Position numbers and translations under genes: made by a program
Origin: Gemmatimonadota bacterium
GTDB lineage: Bacteria; Gemmatimonadota; Gemmatimonadetes; Gemmatimonadales; Gemmatimonadaceae
Reading direction: 5' to 3'
Length of the DNA: 64,000 bases
Assembly: GCA_031127095.1 (NCBI GenBank)
Contig: JARIEX010000002.1
Coordinates: forward strand, 3,346-67,345
Shown: positions 40,269 to 48,140 of the stretch, piece by piece
Numbering within the stretch: position 1 is the stretch's first letter
How the letters are laid out: every line of letters starts with the position of its first letter
The notes under the pieces: generated by a model
The model's database searches: none
Told to the model about the DNA's origin: nothing
The model's input: the letters and a program-made list of their open reading frames with translations, nothing else

Positions 40269-40371
40269 AGTGAGTAGTGAGTGCTGAGTGAGAAGTTCTG
40301 AGTCGGGAGTCGCGGGAAGCGAACGGGGGTACGAAGTCGGGCGCGTGCGCGCTCCGTACCCCGTACCCCCG
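40269..40371. repeat. Degenerate heptamer tandem repeats plus inverted repeat
   Basis: agtgagt agtgagt gctgagt gagaagt tctgagt cgggagt (40269-40310); CGGGGGTACG...CGTACCCCCG (40324-40371). Confidence 0.65.
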
Positions 40372-40395
40372 ACGCCCTGCTTCGGCGTTGTCGCG

Positions 40396-41799
40396 TTACG
40401 CGTGCAGCATCTTCCCCAGTGAATCCAGCACCGCTTCGCCGATCGCTTCGGACAGCGTGGGGTGGGCGTGGATCGCCAGATCGATCTCTTCCACCGTGAA
40501 CTCGTTCTCGCGGGCCACCACGAGTTCGTGGATCATCTCGGTGGCGTGGGCTCCCACGATATGCGCGCCCAGAATTTCGCCGTGCTTGGCATCGCGGATG
40601 ATCTTCACGAAGCCGTCGGTCTCACCACTGGTGCGTGCGCGGCCGTTCGCGGAGAAGGGGAACTTGCCAATGGTATAGTCGAGCTTCTTGTCTTTGCACG
40701 CCTGTTCCGTGAGGCCGATGCTCGCCACTTCCGGATGGCAGTACGTGCAGCTGGGGATGTTGTTGTAGTTCACGAGATGCGCGTGCTGACCGCCCAGCAG
40801 GTCGGCCAGCACATGCCCTTCGCGCGAGCCCTTGTGCGCGAGCATCTGATTGCCCGACACGTCACCGATGGCGTAGTAGCCCGGGACGTTGGTCTCGAAC
40901 TTCGCGTTGATCTTCACGAAGCCGCGCTCCGACTTCGCCACGCCGACCGTCTCGAGGCCGATCTTTTCCACGTTCGGGGCGCGGCCGGCGGCCACGAGCA
41001 CCTTGTCCACCGCGAGCGTGTGCGTGGTGCCGCCCGACTCGACCACGAGCGTGGCGCCGGTCGCGGTGATCTTCGTGCTGGTGATCTTGGCACCCGTGAG
41101 GATGTCGATCTTCCGCTTCTTGAACGCCTTCGCCAGTTCGGCGCTGCAATCGGCGTCTTCGATGGGCAGAATGGTCGGTGCCACTTCCACCATCGTCACC
41201 TTGGTGCCGAAGGCCGCGAACACATCGGCGAATTCCACGCCCACGGCACCGGCGCCCACCACCACCATCGACGCGGGCGCCTTCTCTGCCACCAGGACGT
41301 CGTCGCTGGACAGCACGACGTTCCGGTCCAGTTCGAGCCCCGCCTGCGGGAGCCCCTTTACGCGCGAGCCGGTGGCGATGACCACCGCCTTCTTCGCCTC
41401 GTGCGTCTCTTTTTTTCCGTCGGCCATGGTCACGGTGACCTTCTTCCCCTTCTCGAGCACGCCTTCACCGCGGATCCACTGCACCTTGTGCTTCTTCATC
41501 AGGAACTCGACGCCCTTCGAGTTCTGCGCGCTGATGCTGCGCGACCGCTTCATGGCCGGGCCGAAGTCGAGGGTGATGCCGTCGAGCGTGATGCCGTGTT
41601 CGGCCGCCTTGCCGATTTTGACGGCCAGCCCGGCGCTTTCGAGCAGCGACTTGGCCGGGATGCACCCCCAGAGCACACAGGTGCCGCCGAGTGCTTCACG
41701 TTCGATAACGGCCACCTGCATGCCCAGTTGGGCGCAGCGGATGGCGCAGACGTAGCCGGCGGGACCGCCGCCAAGAATGATGACGTCGAACAAGGCCAT
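40396..41799 (-). CDS. lpdA: Dihydrolipoyl dehydrogenase (E3)
   Basis: GGGPAGY, GGTCVLWGCIP, GAGAVGVE, HAHPTLSE. Confidence 0.97.
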   Translation of the reverse strand: MALFDVIILGGGPAGYVCAIRCAQLGMQVAVIEREALGGTCVLWGCIPAKSLLESAGLAVKIGKAAEHGITLDGITLDFGPAMKRSRSISAQNSKGVEFLMKKHKVQWIRGEGVLEKGKKVTVTMADGKKETHEAKKAVVIATGSRVKGLPQAGLELDRNVVLSSDDVLVAEKAPASMVVVGAGAVGVEFADVFAAFGTKVTMVEVAPTILPIEDADCSAELAKAFKKRKIDILTGAKITSTKITATGATLVVESGGTTHTLAVDKVLVAAGRAPNVEKIGLETVGVAKSERGFVKINAKFETNVPGYYAIGDVSGNQMLAHKGSREGHVLADLLGGQHAHLVNYNNIPSCTYCHPEVASIGLTEQACKDKKLDYTIGKFPFSANGRARTSGETDGFVKIIRDAKHGEILGAHIVGAHATEMIHELVVARENEFTVEEIDLAIHAHPTLSEAIGEAVLDSLGKMLHA

Positions 41800-41868
41800 G
41801 TGAGTCGGGGATTAGCGGGGAAGGGTGATGCCGAAAGATAGCGGAAGTGCGTCGGCGGGAGGGGTCGG

Positions 41869-43188
41869 CTAGCCGAGCAGCCACTGAGCGGCTGAAAACC
41901 ACTGCAGCGTGCCGGGGAGGCGCCGCGTCGGCGGGGACTGGTCGTGCGTGATGAGCAGCGCGACGGCGTCGGGATAGGTGGTGGCGGCTGCCTCGAGCGC
42001 CCGCACCTCCCGCTCCCATGTCGTGTCGTCCGTCGTGTCCAGGCACACCTGCACCAGCAGCGGCGGCTCGCCTGGCCGCGCGGCGAAAAAGTCCACTTCG
42101 CGGTCGTCGCCGACCCGCAGCCAGGACACGGCATACTCCCGTCGCTCGAGTTCAAGGAGGACGGCCGTCTCGAGCGCCCGCCCGCGATGCGCTCGACCAG
42201 GCTGCTCGTAGAGCGGGATGAGCCCCGCATCGACCGGGTACACCTTGCGCGGATTCACCATGCGTTGCTTCTCCGAGGCGCTGTGCATGTCGAGCACGCG
42301 AACGAGAAAGGCGTCTTGCAGGTGATCGAGGTAAGCGTGGAGCGTGTCCTTGCCAATCGACACGCCCTGTGACTTCAGGACGTTGTAGAACTTGTGCACG
42401 GTGAAGCTGCCGCCAGGTGTGGAGAGCAGGTGCCGCTGCAGCGCCCGTAGCGCCGTGGGATTCGAGACGTTGTGGCGTTCGATGACGTCGCGGAGCACCA
42501 TGGTGTCGACGTAGCCTGTGAGCAGTCTCGCCCGGTCGCGGGGGGCGATGCCCTGCGCTTCCGGGAAGCCTCCCGACTGCAGGTAGTCGCGGAGTCGGGC
42601 ATCAATGGCCGCTCGCTCCGCGGGGTCGAGCTGGTGCCAGGATGCCTCCGGCTCCGCCCGCGCGTGGCGGAGCGCTTCGCGAAAGGAGAAGGGATGCACG
42701 AGCACCTCGAGCAGTCGTCCGCGGACGGCTGTGGCCACTTCCTGGCTGAGGAGTTTTGCCGAGGATCCGGAGATCACGATATCCACGTTCTTTGCTTCCA
42801 CGAGGCGATGCACGAGCGACTCCCACCCCTCGACAATCTGGATCTCGTCGAGGTACAGCGAGAGAAGGCCCTCGGCGCGGATCGTGGGGAATTGCCGGGC
42901 GTGCTCATCGATCACCCAGCCAAGGTCGAGCGCGGTCATGCCGATGAGGCGCTCATCTTCGAGCCCCAGCATGAGCTGCGATTCCCGGGGGCGCCCTCCC
43001 GCGATGCGATCGGCGCGCTGTTGGTGTAGGAACGAGGTCTTTCCACCGCGCCGTACGCCGATGACGGCGAGCGGCTTACCGGGAATCCCGGGCAGGCGCA
43101 CGTCTCGCCGCGTGAGATTCGGTGGTGGCACGGAGAGCGCTTCCGCGAGCTTGACTCTGAGGAGCTCCGGTGAAACTGTCCTTTCCAT
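41869..43188 (-). CDS. AAA_14 ATPase + DUF4143 / PD-(D/E)XK-like domain protein
   Basis: GVRRGGKT Walker A, LYLDEIQ Walker B, SGSSAKLL, GGFPE, RKVYPVDAG, LETAV, EVDF...LVQV; start ATG 43188. Confidence 0.9.
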   Translation of the reverse strand: MERTVSPELLRVKLAEALSVPPPNLTRRDVRLPGIPGKPLAVIGVRRGGKTSFLHQQRADRIAGGRPRESQLMLGLEDERLIGMTALDLGWVIDEHARQFPTIRAEGLLSLYLDEIQIVEGWESLVHRLVEAKNVDIVISGSSAKLLSQEVATAVRGRLLEVLVHPFSFREALRHARAEPEASWHQLDPAERAAIDARLRDYLQSGGFPEAQGIAPRDRARLLTGYVDTMVLRDVIERHNVSNPTALRALQRHLLSTPGGSFTVHKFYNVLKSQGVSIGKDTLHAYLDHLQDAFLVRVLDMHSASEKQRMVNPRKVYPVDAGLIPLYEQPGRAHRGRALETAVLLELERREYAVSWLRVGDDREVDFFAARPGEPPLLVQVCLDTTDDTTWEREVRALEAAATTYPDAVALLITHDQSPPTRRLPGTLQWFSAAQWLLG

Positions 43189-43228
43189 AAGGACAGAATA
43201 TGCCACTATTGTCCTTTTTACAAGGACG
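43176..43228 (-). promoter_or_regulatory. Leaderless promoter with two palindromic operators
   Basis: Minus strand TTGTAA (43223-43218), 17 nt, TATTCT (43200-43195), 6 nt, ATG; palindromes TGTCCTT-N5-AAGGACA (43177-43195) and TGTCCTT-N5-AAGGACG (43210-43228). Confidence 0.72.
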
Positions 43229-43279
43229 AATGTTTCTTCTCCTGGCGTACGTGCGATGTAGGCCGAAACGCGTTCTGTT

Positions 43280-46200
43280 CTACCGCCGCCCCGTGCGCAC
43301 GCCGTCGGAAACGACCACCTCGACCGCCCGACCGCCGGTGACCACCGTGTCACCCGACCGCCGCACGAAGCCCATCAGGGCGCCGGTGGCGGCGTCGCGC
43401 ACCATGGCCATGGGGTAGGCGGCGCTGTTCCACGTGACACGCGACCGGCCGTCGGCGGTGCGCTGCACTTGCGCCTGTACGGCGGGCGCGACCGGCGTGC
43501 CTCCCGCCCCGGGGGCGACCAAGCGGGCGCGGCGCTGCCCGATGGCGGAGAGCGGGGAGCGGGTATCACGCACGCGGATGGTGGCGAGGCGGTCTTCGAG
43601 CGCCGCGCTCCACGGGACGACCACCGCGAACTGCCGCTCGTCGGTGGCGGCGGCATGGTCCACCGCGGGCGCCTCGATGGGAGTGTCCAGCAGGATCGCT
43701 CCGTCGGCGTCGAGTAGCTCGAGGCGGATGGCGGCCGACGGCACCGCGGCACTGGCCGGCGCCGGCACGCGGAAGGCGGGTTCGAGCTGGACGCGCCCGT
43801 TCGTGATGCGCCCCCACACCAGCAGGCCGTCACGCGGCGCGGCGGTGGCGTATGCGCTCGCGACCACGCTGGCGGCGGTGCTGCGATACTGCATGATGGC
43901 GCTCCACGTGTAGTCGCTCACCCACTGGTTGTTGCAGTACCCCATCACGTCAGTCCAGGTGGGCGACACGAGGGTGTTGAGCGCGCTGTTCCACCCCCAA
44001 TGACCGATGGTGCCGCCGCTGTAGGGGAAGTTGGTGTCCCCGGTGGTCCCGCAGGGCGCGTGATTGCGCGAGAAGTTGTGCCCCCATTCGTGTGCCGCGA
44101 CCTCATCACCGCTGGGCAGCAAGTCCCACCCGACCGCCGCGCGACCGGGGGCGTAGCCGTACCCCGCGATTCCGCTGGTGTACGACACGCCCAGCACGCC
44201 GTAGTAGTGCATCGCGCTGGGCGCCCCGTCGGTGGCGCGCAAGGCGTTGAGTTCGCTCAACACGGTCAGCCACTGGCCGTTGTCGTCGTTGCTCTGGATG
44301 TCGGTGGCGCTGGCGGTGAACGGCGCGCGCACGTCGGACACGACCGTGTTGAGCGGGAACATCTTTTGCACCGACGCCAGAAATGCGCCCTTGTTGGCGG
44401 CCGTCACGTTGCCCGTCCGTCCGCCGGCCACGACCGGCACCAACCGCACGGTGAACGTGGGAACGCTGTTCACCCGCAGCACCTGCGGTGTACCGCTGCG
44501 CGGCCAGATGTTGTCGCTGCGATCGGCGTCGGTCACGGCCAGCGCCGGATCGAGCTCGATGAGCACGCGCGTGGTGGGGCGGATGTTGACGCCCGGAATG
44601 ATCAGGTTCCACGTGGACGTGAGCGTGCCTTCGGCGAGCACGGTGCGCACCCCCGCTTCCGGGGCTGGAATGAGCGTGGACTGCAGCAGTGTGGCCCCGT
44701 CGTACAGGCGCACGCGCACGTCGGGGCGCGCGCTGTTGGCGGCGCTGGCTTGCACGAACACCCGCAGCAGCGCCTCGCGGCCGGCCACCAGCGCCACCGT
44801 GCCATCGAAGCGCTGAATGGCCTGCGTGACATATGCGGTGCTGATCGCGTAGTTCTGCGCCACGGTGGCGGCGTACGCGAAAGTGGCGGTGGCGGTGCCG
44901 TTGGGCGTGATGGTTACGCTCTGCGACGCCGGGGTCGGCGTGTACGTGGTGGCACCGCTCACGATGGTGTTGGCGGTAATCGTCCACGAGCCCACCTCGA
45001 GCGCCGACACCGTGCCCGCACCGCTCACCGACCGCGGTGCGCCGGTGCCGCTGAGGGCAAACGTCGGCGTGGCACTTCCCGGAATGCCGCTGGTGGCAAT
45101 GGTCACGGCACCGGTGGCCAGTGCGTACGACACGGTGGCGGGCGATGCCACGAGCGACGCCACAACGGTGACCTGCTGGGACACCGGCACCGGCACATAG
45201 GTGGTGGCGCCGGTGCCGACGCTCGCAGCCGACACCGTATAGCTGCCGGGGGCCAGCAGGGTGAGCGTGGTGGTGGCCGTCAGCGTGCGGGAAAATCCGC
45301 CGGGACCCGTCACGGCGACACTCCCGCTCGCTCCGCTGGGGAGGCCGCTGACCACCACGGCGATGGCCCCCGTGGTGATGGCATAGTGCACCGGCAGCGA
45401 CAGCGTGTCGCCGGCGGACACGGTGGTATCGCGCGCGGTGGGGGTGGGCAGGTAGGTCGCGCCGCCACCCGACACATTAGCGGCACTCAGGCGCCAGCGA
45501 CCCGCCACCGCTGGGCTGATGCGCGTGGTGCCCGTGACCGCGACGGCCTCACCGGACGGCGACAGGAGGGTGATGTTGGCCGGCGTTCCGGCCGGCAGCC
45601 CCGTGACCGGGATGTCCACCACCGTGGGGACCACGGCAAATGCCACGGTCACGGTGGTGGTGGCACCCGTGCTGATGGTGACCGACTGCTCGCGCGGCGC
45701 CGGCGCGTAGCGCACGCCGGCCACTGTGAGTGGGACCGCCGACACGGTGTAGCTGCCCACAGGCAACGAATCGAGCGTGGCGGCGCCGCTCAGCGCCCGC
45801 GTCAGGCCGTTTCCGGTGAGGGTGAGCACCGGAGCCGCGTCGGCGGGCACGCCGCTCGTGGTCAGCACCACGCGACCCACCTGCGCCGCGTACACCACGG
45901 CGGCCGGTGCCGCCACCACCGACGCGCGCACGGTTACCGTGAGCGTGTCGGGGGTGGGGCGGAAGGTGATGCCGTTGGCCGCCACGGTCGCGGCCACCAC
46001 CCGATACGCCCCGGGTACGAGGTCGGTGAGCGTCGCGGTGGCGGTGACCGAGCGGCTGAAGCCGTCGGGGCCGGTGACCTGCACCGCACCCGGACGTCCG
46101 GCGGGCAAGCCGGTCACCGCGACGGCAATGGCCCCGCTCGACACGTCGTAGCGCACGGCCACGCGCGCGGTGTCGCCGTGCTGCACCAGCGTGTCGATCG

Positions 46201-46747
46201 AGGCTGGCGTTGGAGTGTAGCGGAAGCCGCCGGTCAGCAGCGGCCCTGCCGCCACCCGCCACCGGCCGCTGTTCGCGCTGGTGAGCACGCGCGAGGTGGC
46301 CGCCGCTACCTCGCCGCCGCTTGGCGGCGACACCGTGACGGGGGCGTCCACGCCGGCGGGCACGCCCAGCAGTATCAGGTCAATCGCCGATGGCAGCGCC
46401 TGATACGTGATGGTCGTGGCCGATGGCGTGGAGCCACTCACCACGGTCACGGACACGACCGACGGTGTGGCGGCGAAGGTCCCGTCGGTGGTGCGTACGG
46501 GGCGCACGGTGATGGTGTGCACGCCCGCGGGGACATCGGTCCACGTGACCGAACCCGTGGCGGTGCGCGAAAAAGTGAGCCCGCTCACCGACACGTCGGC
46601 ACTGACGCCGGTCGGCAGCCCGGCGACCGTGAGACTCAGCACGCCCGGCGGCACGGCGCGCGGTGCCGTGGGCGTGTCGCCCCCGGAACAGGCGGCGACC
46701 AGCCACAGCAGCAGAACCAGCGCGCGGCGCGGGGAAATTCGTGGCAT
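43280..46747 (-). CDS. Lipoprotein with 7 beta-sandwich repeats and M66-like metzincin protease domain
   Basis: Lipobox VAAC; ~85-aa GLP/GVP repeats; YVTQAIQ...LVAGREALLRVFV; AHEWGHNFSRNHAPCG; Met-turn DVMGYC. Confidence 0.85.
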   Translation of the reverse strand: MPRISPRRALVLLLWLVAACSGGDTPTAPRAVPPGVLSLTVAGLPTGVSADVSVSGLTFSRTATGSVTWTDVPAGVHTITVRPVRTTDGTFAATPSVVSVTVVSGSTPSATTITYQALPSAIDLILLGVPAGVDAPVTVSPPSGGEVAAATSRVLTSANSGRWRVAAGPLLTGGFRYTPTPASIDTLVQHGDTARVAVRYDVSSGAIAVAVTGLPAGRPGAVQVTGPDGFSRSVTATATLTDLVPGAYRVVAATVAANGITFRPTPDTLTVTVRASVVAAPAAVVYAAQVGRVVLTTSGVPADAAPVLTLTGNGLTRALSGAATLDSLPVGSYTVSAVPLTVAGVRYAPAPREQSVTISTGATTTVTVAFAVVPTVVDIPVTGLPAGTPANITLLSPSGEAVAVTGTTRISPAVAGRWRLSAANVSGGGATYLPTPTARDTTVSAGDTLSLPVHYAITTGAIAVVVSGLPSGASGSVAVTGPGGFSRTLTATTTLTLLAPGSYTVSAASVGTGATTYVPVPVSQQVTVVASLVASPATVSYALATGAVTIATSGIPGSATPTFALSGTGAPRSVSGAGTVSALEVGSWTITANTIVSGATTYTPTPASQSVTITPNGTATATFAYAATVAQNYAISTAYVTQAIQRFDGTVALVAGREALLRVFVQASAANSARPDVRVRLYDGATLLQSTLIPAPEAGVRTVLAEGTLTSTWNLIIPGVNIRPTTRVLIELDPALAVTDADRSDNIWPRSGTPQVLRVNSVPTFTVRLVPVVAGGRTGNVTAANKGAFLASVQKMFPLNTVVSDVRAPFTASATDIQSNDDNGQWLTVLSELNALRATDGAPSAMHYYGVLGVSYTSGIAGYGYAPGRAAVGWDLLPSGDEVAAHEWGHNFSRNHAPCGTTGDTNFPYSGGTIGHWGWNSALNTLVSPTWTDVMGYCNNQWVSDYTWSAIMQYRSTAASVVASAYATAAPRDGLLVWGRITNGRVQLEPAFRVPAPASAAVPSAAIRLELLDADGAILLDTPIEAPAVDHAAATDERQFAVVVPWSAALEDRLATIRVRDTRSPLSAIGQRRARLVAPGAGGTPVAPAVQAQVQRTADGRSRVTWNSAAYPMAMVRDAATGALMGFVRRSGDTVVTGGRAVEVVVSDGVRTGRR

Positions 46748-46788
46748 CAGCAGGGCAGGGAGGTCTATTCACAGGACGACCGAAACGG

Positions 46789-46827
46789 CCGAACGCACCG
46801 AACACGGGTGGTGTTCGGTGCGTTCGG
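46789..46827. repeat. 17-bp perfect inverted repeat (REP-like stem-loop) after pdhC
   Basis: CCGAACGCACCGAACAC-gggtg-GTGTTCGGTGCGTTCGG. Confidence 0.75.
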
Positions 46828-46853
46828 TGTACGCGGTGCTCGGCGCGAACGGT

Positions 46854-48140
46854 CTAGAACAGCATCATCAGCGGCGACTCGAGCAGCGAGCGCAGCGTCT
46901 GGAGGAACTTTGCGCCGACGGCGCCATCGATGACGCGGTGATCGCAGCTGAGCGTGACGCGCATGCGCTGCCGCGGCACGAACTGGCCGTTCTCCCACAC
47001 CGGCTTAGTTTCCGTGGATCCTACGGCCAGAATGGCGGCCTCGGGCGGATTGATGATCGCGGTGAACTGATCGATCCCGAACATGCCGAGGTTGGACACG
47101 GAGAAGGTGCCGCCGCTGAATTCCGCCGGCTGCAGTTTCCGCTCGCGTGCCTTCTTGGCGAGTTCGCGGGCTTCCTTGCCGATCTGCCCCAGCCCCTTGC
47201 TCTGGGCGTCGCGGATCACGGGAACGATCAGGCCGTCGTCGGTGGCCACGGCCATGCCGACGTGCGCCGCGCTGAAGTAGCGGATGGATTCGCCCATCCA
47301 ATGCGCGTTGCACTCGGGGTGCCGGGTGAGGGCGATGGCGACGGCTTTGATGATGATGTCGTTGACCGACACCTTGAACTGATCGCCGTTGGCCACCATC
47401 TGCTCGCGTAGCTGCCCCACCTTCGTCATGTCGATTTCCGACGTGAGGTAGAACGTGGGCACCGGGCCGATGGACTCGCTGAGACGACGCGCGATGGTTT
47501 TGCGCATCTGCGTGAGCGCGACGTCCTTGTACTCGCCGTCGATCTGCATCGCGGTCGATACGGCGGTGGGCTTGGCGGCACTCGACACGGCCGTGGAGGC
47601 CGCTGTGGGTGCTGCGGCCATTGCGGCGGCGGCCGGGACGGCAGCCTCGATGTCACGACGAATCACGCGGCCCCCCGGGCCACTGCCGTGTACGCTCGCG
47701 AGGTTCACCCCCTTCTCGGCGGCCATGCGGCGGGCCAGCGGCGACGACCGCACCGGCCCAGACGGCTCGGCCACGGGCGCCGGCGCTGCTGCCGCGGCGG
47801 CCACGGGTGCGGCGGCGGGTGCGGCGGCGGACGGTGCGGCCACGGGTGCGGCGGCCGCGGCCGGCGCACTGCCGCCGCCGGTGAGCGCGCTGATGTCCTC
47901 GTCGGGGGCGGCGATCACGCCGATCACCGCGCCGATGGTGGCCGTGGTGCCTTCGGTGATCAACAGCGCGCGCAGCACGCCGTCACCGCGGGCCACGAGC
48001 TCCATGATCGCCTTGTCGGTTTCCACTTCACCGATGGTGTCACCGGTTTTCACGGTGTCGCCGACGTTCTTCACCCACTTCACGAGGCGTCCTTCCTCCA
48101 TCGTGGGAGAAAGCGCCTCCATCATCACTTTCGTTGCCAT
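46854..48140 (-). CDS. pdhC: Pyruvate dehydrogenase E2 dihydrolipoamide acetyltransferase
   Basis: Single lipoyl domain EVETDKA, Ala/Pro linker, SPLARR...GSGPGGRV, TFSVSNLG, DHRVIDG. Confidence 0.96.
   Translation of the reverse strand: MATKVMMEALSPTMEEGRLVKWVKNVGDTVKTGDTIGEVETDKAIMELVARGDGVLRALLITEGTTATIGAVIGVIAAPDEDISALTGGGSAPAAAAAPVAAPSAAAPAAAPVAAAAAAPAPVAEPSGPVRSSPLARRMAAEKGVNLASVHGSGPGGRVIRRDIEAAVPAAAAMAAAPTAASTAVSSAAKPTAVSTAMQIDGEYKDVALTQMRKTIARRLSESIGPVPTFYLTSEIDMTKVGQLREQMVANGDQFKVSVNDIIIKAVAIALTRHPECNAHWMGESIRYFSAAHVGMAVATDDGLIVPVIRDAQSKGLGQIGKEARELAKKARERKLQPAEFSGGTFSVSNLGMFGIDQFTAIINPPEAAILAVGSTETKPVWENGQFVPRQRMRVTLSCDHRVIDGAVGAKFLQTLRSLLESPLMMLF

What the first reader, a model, noticed from the sequence alone, without database searches (positions are those of the whole stretch)
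41869..43228. Self-contained ATPase-nuclease gene in the PDH operon with a leaderless promoter overlapped by twin palindromic operators
Seen: an AT-rich patch upstream of the AAA_14/DUF4143 gene holds a near-consensus promoter (TTGTAA-N17-TATTCT) whose predicted +1 is the A of the ATG (43188). Two copies of TGTCCTT-N5-AAGGAC(A/G), 33 bp apart, cover the -35 box and the +1/start codon. Known: this family combines an ATPase, a winged helix and a restriction-like nuclease fold, and its function is unresolved; leaderless transcripts with paired operators occur in C-protein-controlled R-M systems. Inference: the protein binds its own operators and represses itself, making a one-gene, tightly dosed nuclease module (defence or selfish element) independent of the host operon.
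Basis: partly seen in the sequence, partly recalled or inferred. Interest (0 to 1): 0.8.

Follow-up and report, generated by a model that had tools for sequence, protein, structure and literature searches.

The report
Self-operator pair of an ATPase-nuclease cassette
Two matching DNA palindromes sit on the promoter and start codon of a horizontally inserted ATPase-nuclease gene from a very common but untested "phage-defence candidate" family; relatives in other phyla carry the same 33-bp-spaced layout, so the palindromes are most likely where the protein binds and shuts off its own gene.

Summary
YGTCCTT-N5-AAGGACA occurs twice, 33 bp apart (43210-43228 and 43177-43195). One copy covers a -35 box and the other covers the predicted +1/ATG. 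These are the only exact copies in the 3.5-Mb genome.

The gene (AAA_14 + DUF4143, PADLOC candidate PDC-S01) lies on a 1.43-kb cassette. The cassette is inserted between a 1155-aa ORF and lpdA in a 2-oxoacid dehydrogenase operon. A sister genome keeps the clean empty site, with no palindromes.

The strongest evidence is comparative:
- Homologues of 43-89% identity in unrelated contexts and phyla share no neighbouring gene, yet carry 2-3 copies of the same palindrome: 28 sites in 2,850 nt upstream, against 1 in 124 kb of flanks.
- The 32-33-bp phasing and the promoter geometry are the same.
- Distant relatives and same-genus paralogues have their own private arrays.

The AlphaFold model (pLDDT 94) shows a STAND/Orc-like ATPase, a winged helix and a restriction-endonuclease-like domain.

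The best reading is self-repression through the winged helix, with a leaderless mRNA. Binding, the direction of control, the TSS and nuclease activity are all inferred, and the beta3 motif is non-canonical (Q-V-C).

I found no publication of this. The scan's own notes record the same theme on at least 28 other genomes.

The parts
41848..43279 (-). Inserted cassette (about 1,432 bp): promoter, operators, ORF and a short tail. It is absent from the orthologous site of sister genome G034.
   Evidence: In L174 the stop codon of the 1155-aa ORF is followed by 7 nt and then the shared lpdA leader (ctttcgctatctttcggcatc...). In the window that leader resumes at about 41847. The boundaries are uncertain by about 7 nt, and no target duplication is seen.
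43210..43228 (.). Operator 1: CGTCCTT-gtaaa-AAGGACA (minus-strand reading). It overlaps the -35 box.
43177..43195 (.). Operator 2: TGTCCTT-atgga-AAGGACA. Its spacer holds the ATG, and its first T is the last base of the -10.
   Evidence: The arms extend to 8 bp (CTGTCCTT/AAGGACAG).
43218..43223 (-). -35-like hexamer TTGTAA. The TT is the end of the left arm of operator 1.
   Evidence: The same TTGnnn placement is seen in 11 of 16 aligned homologue promoters.
43195..43200 (-). -10-like hexamer TATTCT, 17 nt after the -35.
   Evidence: A TAnnnT-like box sits at the same place in the 14-nt gap between the sites in homologues. The promoter was not called by the consensus scan: 8 of 12 matches.
43188..43188 (-). 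Predicted transcription start, which is also the A of the start codon (leaderless mRNA). This is inferred.
   Evidence: Geometry. In L008 an in-frame TAA lies 4 codons upstream of the ATG, and there is no Shine-Dalgarno sequence. An RNA-library contig ends at 43180, which is weak support.
41869..43188 (-). CDS of 439 aa: AAA_14 + DUF4143, PADLOC PDC-S01.
   Evidence: Most close homologues are also 439 aa.
42664..43077 (-). P-loop NTPase domain (residues 38-175). Walker A is G44-x-R46-R47-x-G49-K50-T51. Walker B is D114-E115.
42235..42459 (-). Winged helix (residues 244-318): H244-256, H264-273, candidate recognition helix H280-292 (GKDTLH...), and a basic wing SEKQRMVNPRK.
   Evidence: There is a weak FUR hit. 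The equivalent region of a Thermus homologue hits the IclR and ArsR HTH models above their cut-offs, with weaker MarR-type hits.
41872..42231 (-). Restriction-endonuclease-like C-terminal domain (residues 320-439). Conserved residues are D320, E340, E364, D366 and Q380-V-C382.
   Evidence: There is a weak Mrr_cat hit, E 0.0018, below its cut-off. DUF4143 is listed as PD-(D/E)XK in PMC3424549.
43280..46747 (-). Upstream flank: 1155-aa ORF conserved in the genus, with no Pfam, NCBIfam or PADLOC hit. It is not part of the cassette.
40396..41799 (-). Downstream flank: lpdA (E3). It starts 70 nt after the cassette gene, with no terminator between them. It is not part of the cassette.

Best explanation
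The 1.43-kb stretch at 41848-43279 is a horizontally acquired one-gene cassette of the PDC-S01 family. It encodes a STAND/Orc-like P-loop ATPase, a winged helix and a restriction-endonuclease-like domain in one 439-aa chain.

Its promoter is built into two 19-bp palindromes (YGTCCTT-N5-AAGGACA) whose centres are 33 bp apart, about three helical turns. The -35 is made from the end of the left arm of site 1. The -10 ends on the first base of site 2. Transcription would start on the A of the ATG, inside the spacer of site 2.

Most likely mechanism:
1. Dimers of the protein bind both sites through the winged helix, on the same face of the DNA.
2. The bound dimers occlude RNA polymerase, so the gene represses itself and the potentially toxic protein is held at a low, buffered dose.
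3. The mRNA is leaderless.
4. Transcripts reading through from the host operon would instead fold the AUG into a hairpin loop with no Shine-Dalgarno sequence. This would insulate translation of the gene from the operon.

Shown: the sites, their uniqueness in the genome, their co-inheritance with the gene across phyla and contexts, the conserved phasing and promoter geometry, their absence from the empty site, the private arrays of paralogues, and the domain architecture.

Inferred: which protein binds, that binding represses, the TSS, nuclease activity, and any defence role.
For: (1) The sites are non-random and unique: 2 copies against 0.07 expected in the window, and the only exact copies in 3.5 Mb.

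(2) They travel with the gene. The consensus at 3 mismatches or fewer gives 28 sites in 2,850 nt upstream of 19 other loci, against 1 in 124,262 nt of their flanks. There are 2-3 sites per locus, 32-33 bp apart, and once 66 bp. The same holds in further genomes of the phylum.

(3) Seventeen non-syntenic loci share no neighbouring gene at E<1e-8, so no separate regulator travels with the sites.

(4) In the empty site of G034 and about 20 other genus members, the 1155-aa ORF abuts lpdA and there are no sites.

(5) The arms are conserved while the spacers vary freely. The -35 and -10 sit at fixed offsets. Codons 2-4 change amino acid (ERT, DGQ, QGT, KLT) yet keep the right arm.

(6) Lineage variants change both arms and both copies together: ATCCTT, CTCCTT, RCCCTT, and GACAGT in the same -40/-7 layout. 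These variants go with changes at the start of the candidate recognition helix: KDTLH, then GE[DE]TLY, ARDTVH and AKETLQ/E.

(7) In an unbiased repeated-palindrome test, 9 of 24 protein clusters below 50% identity scored, against 0.58 expected from shuffles. Among distinct family upstream regions 68 of 116 scored, against 9 of 107 control upstream regions. Spacing peaks at 32-33 bp and at 66 bp.

(8) Paralogues in the same genus have different private arrays. G026 carries both a GTCCTT-type copy and a TTGTCC-N7-GGACAA copy.

(9) The model has pLDDT 93.9 and a canonical winged helix. Its neighbours are the archaeal ATPases 2QEN and 2FNA (Z 16) and Orc1/Cdc6 (Z 11.7). The equivalent region of a Thermus homologue hits the IclR and ArsR HTH models above their cut-offs, plus weaker MarR-type hits.

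(10) A leaderless 5' end is unstructured (-5.2 kcal/mol, z +1.05), whereas a read-through RNA folds two hairpins (-20 kcal/mol, z -3.9).
Against: - There is no binding, footprint, reporter or TSS data.
- In STAND ATPases, the closest fold class after 2QEN and 2FNA, the winged helix serves autoinhibition and oligomerisation rather than DNA reading (own knowledge).
- The promoter matches only 8 of 12 positions and was not called by the scan.
- The helix-operator covariation rests on 3-4 lineage events. One lineage (L034, arms GTCAYT) keeps KDTLH. A pairwise test showed no excess helix-3 identity among pairs with the same arms.
- Four of 19 close loci had no site at 3 mismatches or fewer. Only 9 of 24 distant clusters passed the strict test.
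- The only RNA evidence is low-depth contigs from RNA libraries.
- The beta3 motif lacks the canonical acidic residue and Lys (Q-V-C/S/A/T), so 'nuclease' is not secure.
Confidence: 0.7

Rival explanations
1. The protein does bind the sites, but the array is mainly a docking or assembly platform rather than a simple repressor. Possible roles are Orc/STAND-like nucleation of an oligomer, positive autoregulation, or a resting-state 'parking' site.
For: The fold class is STAND/Orc1-Cdc6. Some relatives carry arrays of 3-6 phased sites, more than repression needs. A Thermus member is induced 6.6-fold when plasmid and Argonaute are both present (PMC4406477).
Against: In this locus, site 1 lies on the -35 and site 2 on the +1. 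That is the classical occlusion geometry, and it is conserved. There is no sign of a replicon or of a second array at the 3' end of the cassette: 1 site in 124 kb of flanks.
Confidence: 0.13
2. The palindromes act as RNA hairpins on transcripts coming from the upstream operon. They would block translation, act as processing or stability elements, or weakly terminate, rather than serve as protein-binding DNA sites.
For: The 66-nt RNA folds into two hairpins at -20 kcal/mol, z -3.9. An RNA-library contig from a relative runs from the 1155-aa ORF into operator 1. On the opposite strand, site 1 scores as terminator-like.
Against: - The arm sequence, not just the pairing, is conserved across phyla and is identical between the two copies.
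- In L009 both left arms became ATCCTT while the right arms stayed AAGGAC, which breaks a pair in both hairpins.
- The 33-bp phasing and the fixed -35/-10 offsets make sense on DNA, not on RNA.
- There is no Rfam match.
Confidence: 0.05
3. A host transcription factor unrelated to the cassette recognises the motif, so the sites are part of a host regulon.
For: None specific. It cannot be formally excluded without binding data.
Against: The motif is unique in the genome. It is absent from the same intergenic site in about 20 relatives that lack the gene. It follows the gene into unrelated phyla and contexts. Paralogues in one genome have different arrays.
Confidence: 0.03
4. The sites double as recognition sites for mobilisation or integration of the cassette, so the ATPase-nuclease would act as its own mobility enzyme.
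For: In G014, G026 and G035 the 5' edge of the insertion lies 10-14 nt from site 1. The family is patchily distributed: 13 of 401 genomes of the phylum. The same intergenic spot holds a Phd-PIN toxin-antitoxin pair in G008.
Against: There are no sites at the 3' end, no terminal inverted repeats and no target duplication. In the window 54 nt separate the upstream stop codon from site 1.
Confidence: 0.04

Closest known systems
PADLOC phage-defence candidate PDC-S01 (Pfam AAA_14 + DUF4143; COG1373)
   Same: The protein matches the PDC-S01 models (E 4e-89) and both Pfam domains above their cut-offs. It is a single-gene, patchily distributed ATPase fused to a PD-(D/E)XK-type domain, as described in PMC12988326.
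   Different: None of the papers I could search describe a promoter or operator for this family, and its function is untested. The one member assayed in E. coli B gave no protection against T4, T5 or T7 (bioRxiv 10.1101/2024.09.26.614923). This subfamily has Q-V-C/S where (D/E)-X-K is expected.
Controller (C) protein operators of restriction-modification systems (e.g. C.PvuII, C.AhdI, C.Esp1396I). This comparison is from my own knowledge, not tested here.
   Same: Paired palindromic boxes lie on the regulator's own promoter. Dimers bind cooperatively. At least some of these systems have leaderless transcripts. The purpose is tight dosing of a nuclease.
   Different: Here there is no separate small HTH protein and no methyltransferase. 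Regulator, ATPase and putative nuclease are one chain. The site spacing is 33 bp centre to centre, whereas C-boxes abut each other. There is no evidence of an activation phase.
Archaeal Orc1/Cdc6 with ORB repeats next to its own gene; archaeal ATPases 2QEN and 2FNA; STAND NTPases (Avs, NLR, CED-4)
   Same: Residues 20-329 superpose on the NTPase-lid-winged-helix module: 2QEN Z 16.4, 2FNA Z 15.8, NLR/Avs Z 10-14, Orc1/Cdc6 Z 11.7. Orc1/Cdc6 uses its winged helix to read inverted repeats placed beside its own gene (own knowledge).
   Different: There is no sign of an origin or replicon. The extra C-terminal endonuclease-like domain is not covered by these matches. In STAND proteins the winged helix is not a DNA reader.
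Winged-helix autorepressors of defence or abortive-infection loci (AbiEi, BrxR/CapW type). This comparison is from my own knowledge.
   Same: A winged-helix protein binds inverted repeats on the promoter of its own defence locus and represses it.
   Different: Those are separate regulator proteins or domains paired with distinct effectors. No sequence or Pfam relationship to them was found here.

Membership tests
PDC-S01 / AAA_14 + DUF4143 (COG1373) | AAA_14 and DUF4143 Pfam domains above their curated cut-offs, in that order in one protein | tested here: met
   AAA_14 scores 86.1 bits (cut-off 27) at residues 38-173. DUF4143 scores 46.6 bits (cut-off 28.1) at residues 233-381.
PDC-S01 / AAA_14 + DUF4143 (COG1373) | Match to the PADLOC PDC-S01 profile over nearly the full length | tested here: met
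   PDLC04787, E 4.2e-89, residues 41-438 against profile positions 31-407 of 412.
PDC-S01 / AAA_14 + DUF4143 (COG1373) | Intact Walker A and Walker B motifs | tested here: met
   G44, R46, G49, K50, T51, D114 and E115 are present in the window's protein. Across the 112 aligned homologues these positions are invariant or nearly so; T51 is Ser in 14 of 112.
PDC-S01 / AAA_14 + DUF4143 (COG1373) | Canonical PD-(D/E)XK catalytic triad in the C-terminal domain | tested here: inconclusive
   E340, E364 and D366 are conserved, but beta3 reads Q380-V-C382 (Q in 107 of 112; position 382 is C, S, A or T and never K). Mrr_cat scores only E 0.0018, below its cut-off.
PDC-S01 / AAA_14 + DUF4143 (COG1373) | Anti-phage or anti-plasmid activity | not testable with these tools
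   It is a candidate only (PMC12988326). The one tested member was negative against T4, T5 and T7 (bioRxiv 10.1101/2024.09.26.614923).
C-protein-controlled restriction-modification system | A separate small HTH controller gene together with methyltransferase and endonuclease genes | tested here: not met
   The cassette holds one ORF. Non-syntenic loci share no neighbouring gene.
C-protein-controlled restriction-modification system | Paired palindromic operators on the regulator's own promoter | tested here: met
   This is a functional analogy only.
C-protein-controlled restriction-modification system | Leaderless transcript from the regulated promoter | tested here: inconclusive
   The geometry fits. 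The only RNA evidence is a contig ending at 43180.
Orc1/Cdc6-type initiator with origin repeats | AAA+ domain, lid and winged-helix fold | tested here: met
   2qby_B Z 11.7, 1fnn_B Z 11.1. One search gives the Foldseek ORC/Cdc6 hits.
Orc1/Cdc6-type initiator with origin repeats | Repeats flank an AT-rich unwinding element and a replicon | not tested
   No replicon features were sought beyond the local composition. The cassette sits inside a chromosomal operon.

The most novel reading that the evidence does not exclude
The operator array is the resting dock of a one-polypeptide immune switch. The STAND/Orc-like protein sits nucleotide-locked on its own promoter. An invader cue (foreign DNA or a nucleotide-state change) pulls it off. 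This both derepresses the gene, giving a feed-forward burst, and releases the endonuclease-like domain. Sensor, regulator and effector would then be one chain, and the co-diversifying palindromes would keep each paralogue addressed to its own promoter.
Probability: 0.2. Interest if true: 0.85.

Novelty: new variant of a known kind. Interest (0 to 1): 0.62.

Why it matters
PDC-S01 is reported as the fourth most common defence-type gene in prokaryotes (PMC12988326). Even so, it has no known ligand, target or phenotype.

A conserved, phased operator that travels with the gene gives the family its first concrete, testable molecular property: a sequence-specific DNA site for the winged helix. It also gives a ready assay (EMSA, footprint or reporter).

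It may also explain why heterologous tests can fail, since expression from foreign promoters bypasses the native control.

This window adds three things: a clean natural insertion and empty-site pair inside an essential metabolic operon, a decaying copy (G035), and a leaderless version of the design in a GC-rich phylum.

Tried and rejected
- A generic count of 6+5+6 palindromes with one mismatch or fewer did not discriminate: 13.7 per kb upstream against 9.1 per kb background. I replaced it with consensus-based and repeated-palindrome tests.
- The consensus promoter scan found nothing in 40300-47000.
- Rfam gave no match.
- A PDB sequence search found no relative.
- NCBIfam gave no family.
- The pairwise covariation test asked whether helix-3 identity is higher among pairs with the same arms than among pairs with different arms, relative to other domains. 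It gave no signal (ratios 0.96-1.00 for helix 3, 0.89-1.02 for the other domains). Arms from the automatic detector are probably out of register, so I count this as inconclusive.
- RNA runs held only small shares. Low-depth contigs lie on 42695-42876 and 42930-43180, and there is one junction contig from a relative. None can prove a TSS or expression, and parts without cover mean nothing.
I could therefore not fetch upstream regions for the 40-54% identity representatives with variant recognition helices (P0125, P0127, P0128, P0129). I used a phylum-wide genome search instead.
- Chance is rejected.
- The 1155-aa neighbour as the binder is rejected, because non-syntenic loci lack it.
- No third site is visible 33 bp upstream of site 1 in the window (logic applied).
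Full report
**What is there**

On the minus strand the sequence reads ...cattCGTCCTTgtaaaAAGGACAatagtggcaTATTCTGTCCTTATGGAAAGGACAgttt....
- GTCCTT-N5-AAGGAC lies at 43211-43227 and at 43178-43194, with centres 33 bp apart.
- With one mismatch allowed there are only these 2 matches in the 64-kb window. Shuffles gave a mean of 0.07, and none of 100 reached 2.
- In the whole 3.5-Mb assembly (229 contigs, 83% complete) these are the only exact copies. The three one-mismatch sites elsewhere are about what the base composition predicts.
- TTGTAA (43223-43218), a 17-nt spacer and TATTCT (43200-43195) place +1 on the A of the ATG at 43188.
- The promoter matches consensus at 8 of 12 positions, and the consensus scan did not call it.
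- The patch has GC 0.56, against 0.65-0.76 around it.

**The gene and its setting**

The ORF at 41869-43188 (439 aa) carries AAA_14 and DUF4143. It matches PADLOC candidate PDC-S01 at E 4e-89. It is the only DUF4143 gene in the genome.

The surrounding operon is E1alpha, E1beta, E2, a 1155-aa ORF with no known domain, this gene, lpdA and a lipoyl ligase.

In about 20 other members of the genus, the 1155-aa ORF is followed directly by lpdA and no palindromes are present. G034 shows a clean empty site: the stop codon, 7 nt, then the shared lpdA leader, which resumes at about 41847 in the window.

The cassette is therefore a 1.43-kb insertion. It is shared by G000, G014, G026 and G035. In G035 a 5' deletion has removed residues 1-48 and the right half of site 2, and site 1 has decayed to AATGAC.

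Close relatives are sporadic: 13 of 401 genomes sampled from the phylum.

**The sites belong to the gene**

I took the upstream regions of homologues from genome and metagenome collections.
- Scanning with the consensus TGTCCTT-N5-AAGGACA at 3 mismatches or fewer gave 28 sites in 2,850 nt upstream of 19 other loci, against 1 site in 124,262 nt of their flanks.
- Fifteen of the 19 loci have at least one site, and 12 have two or three.
- The sites are 32-33 bp apart, once 66 bp.
- The loci come from Gemmatimonadota, Acidimicrobiia, Verrucomicrobiota, Polyangiaceae, Holophagales and Bacteriovoracaceae, at 43-89% protein identity.
- Apart from the three syntenic loci, no neighbouring gene is shared. 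No separate regulator therefore travels with the sites.
- A further draw from the phylum added more cases.

**Conserved geometry**

Anchoring the loci on the two promoter-proximal sites shows four things:
- The arms are conserved while the spacers vary freely.
- The -35 (TTGnnn) is formed by the last TT of the left arm of site 1 in 11 of 16 loci.
- A TAnnnT-like -10 ends on the first T of site 2, so the 17-nt promoter spacer is built into the 33-bp phasing.
- The start codon lies in the spacer of site 2 in the window, L008, L009, L030, L098, L103, L037, L012 and others. Other lineages keep the operator-promoter module but have a 13-55-nt leader, and L038 has AGGAGG.

Codons 2-4 change amino acid (ERT, DGQ, QGT, KLT) yet keep the right arm. 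This points to a constraint at the DNA level.

In L008 an in-frame TAA four codons upstream fixes the ATG as the start, and there is no Shine-Dalgarno sequence.

**Lineage variants**

Arm variants change in both arms and in both copies of a locus: ATCCTT, CTCCTT, RCCCTT, AGCCTT, and GACAGT in the same -40/-7 layout.

These classes go with changes at the start of the candidate recognition helix, residues 280-285:
- GKDTLH with [G/A]TCCTT, in 17 loci.
- GE[DE]TLY, plus V311R in the wing, with RCCCTT.
- ARDTVH with CTCCTT.
- AKETL[Q/E] with GACAGT.

This is suggestive only. It rests on 3-4 lineage events. L034 is an exception. A crude pairwise test gave no signal.

**The wider family**

Homologues of 27-34% identity (Bacteroidales, Treponema, Lachnospiraceae, DPANN archaea) carry their own repeated palindromes. 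In Bacteroidota these lie next to the TAnnTTTG box.
- In an unbiased test for two similar palindromes within 75 bp, 9 of 24 clusters below 50% identity scored, against 0.58 expected from dinucleotide shuffles.
- Among distinct family upstream regions 68 of 116 scored, against 9 of 107 control upstream regions from the same loci.
- The family spacings peak at 32-33 bp (39 cases) and 66 bp (14 cases). The control spacings are scattered.
- Paralogues in the same genus have private arrays: TAGCGATCAGCCG repeated 4-6 times at 22 bp, or TTGTCC-N7-GGACAA. G026 holds two different types.

The scan's notebook shows the same theme recorded on at least 28 other genomes. I treat those notes as leads. The tests above are my own.

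**The protein**

The AlphaFold2 model has pLDDT 93.9 and pTM 0.93. Its parts are:
- a P-loop domain (residues 38-175),
- a helical lid,
- a winged helix (H244-256, H264-273, H280-292, and a hairpin wing at 296-318),
- an alpha/beta C-terminal domain (residues 320-439).

Structural neighbours cover residues 20-329: the archaeal ATPases 2QEN (Z 16.4) and 2FNA (Z 15.8), the STAND proteins NLR, Avs and CED-4 (Z 10-14), and Orc1/Cdc6 (Z 11.7).

The C-terminal part gives only a weak Mrr_cat hit. Its beta3 strand reads Q-V-C/S/A/T where (D/E)-X-K is expected, although E340, E364 and D366 are conserved. Nuclease activity is therefore plausible but not secure.

In a Thermus thermophilus homologue the equivalent winged-helix region hits the IclR and ArsR HTH models above their cut-offs, with weaker MarR-type hits. 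A family member there (TT_P0211) rose 6.6-fold when plasmid and Argonaute were both present (PMC4406477). That fits a regulated gene, but it is indirect evidence.

**RNA-level evidence**

- A read-through RNA would fold both palindromes (-20 kcal/mol, z -3.9) and put the AUG in a hairpin loop. A transcript starting at 43188 has an unstructured 5' end.
- Low-depth RNA-library contigs lie on 42695-42876 and 42930-43180. The second stops 8 nt inside the ATG.
- A contig from a relative runs from the 1155-aa ORF into its operator 1.

These are weak hints only.

**Literature**

DUF4143 is listed as a PD-(D/E)XK family of unknown function (PMC3424549). PDC-S01 is described as the fourth most common defence-type gene, and it is unvalidated (PMC12988326). 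One member gave no protection against T4, T5 or T7 in E. coli B (bioRxiv 10.1101/2024.09.26.614923). I found no paper describing its promoter or operators.

**Verdict**

The locus works like a C-protein or AbiEi-type autorepressed nuclease locus, but regulator, ATPase and putative nuclease are one chain, and it is not a member of those families. My confidence in self-repression through the winged helix is about 0.7.

Noticed in passing
L178 (G008) 2125-2877; also L195 (G020): In two other genus members, the same intergenic spot between the 1155-aa ORF and lpdA holds a Phd/YefM antitoxin plus PIN-domain toxin pair instead of the ATPase cassette. This junction seems to be a landing site for small selfish or defence modules.
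   Followed up: partly
window 43280-46747 (-): A 1155-aa ORF sits between E2 and E3 of the dehydrogenase operon. It is conserved across the genus (49-77% identity in its last 200 aa) but has no Pfam, NCBIfam or PADLOC match. It is an unexplained resident of a metabolic operon.
   Followed up: no
L010 / L031 / L175 (G035), about 2068-2130 of L175: The orthologous cassette has lost residues 1-48 (including most of the Walker A motif) and the right half of site 2. The right arm of site 1 has changed to AATGAC. It looks like a decaying copy, with the operator eroding along with the gene.
   Followed up: partly
L216, L217, L219 (about 60% identity homologues), -40 to +12 of the start: The two sites are reverse complements of each other, including hybrid arms and spacers: TGCCCTT-ctcat-AAGTACA ... 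TGTACTT-atgag-AAGGGCA. The whole 52-bp operator region is therefore one large dyad rather than two self-symmetric boxes.
   Followed up: no
L204, L207, L208 (paralogues in G012, G036, G016): A different AAA_14/DUF4143 subfamily in the same genus is preceded by 4-6 direct repeats of TAGCGATCAGCCG at 22-bp spacing, running up to the start codon.
   Followed up: partly
window 41800-41868: No terminator follows the cassette gene, and lpdA starts 70 nt downstream. Transcription of lpdA and lipB must therefore cross the cassette or start at its promoter, so the insertion may alter expression of the operon.
   Followed up: no
L212 16075-16135 (T. thermophilus HB27 pTT27, upstream of TT_RS11170): The Thermus family member has three different palindromes at its start: GCCATCTC-N5-GAGATGGC, TGAATGA-N3-TCATTCA, and GGAAAG-AA-CTTTCC across codons 2-5. 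Its N-terminus is MERTF, like MERTV here.
   Followed up: no
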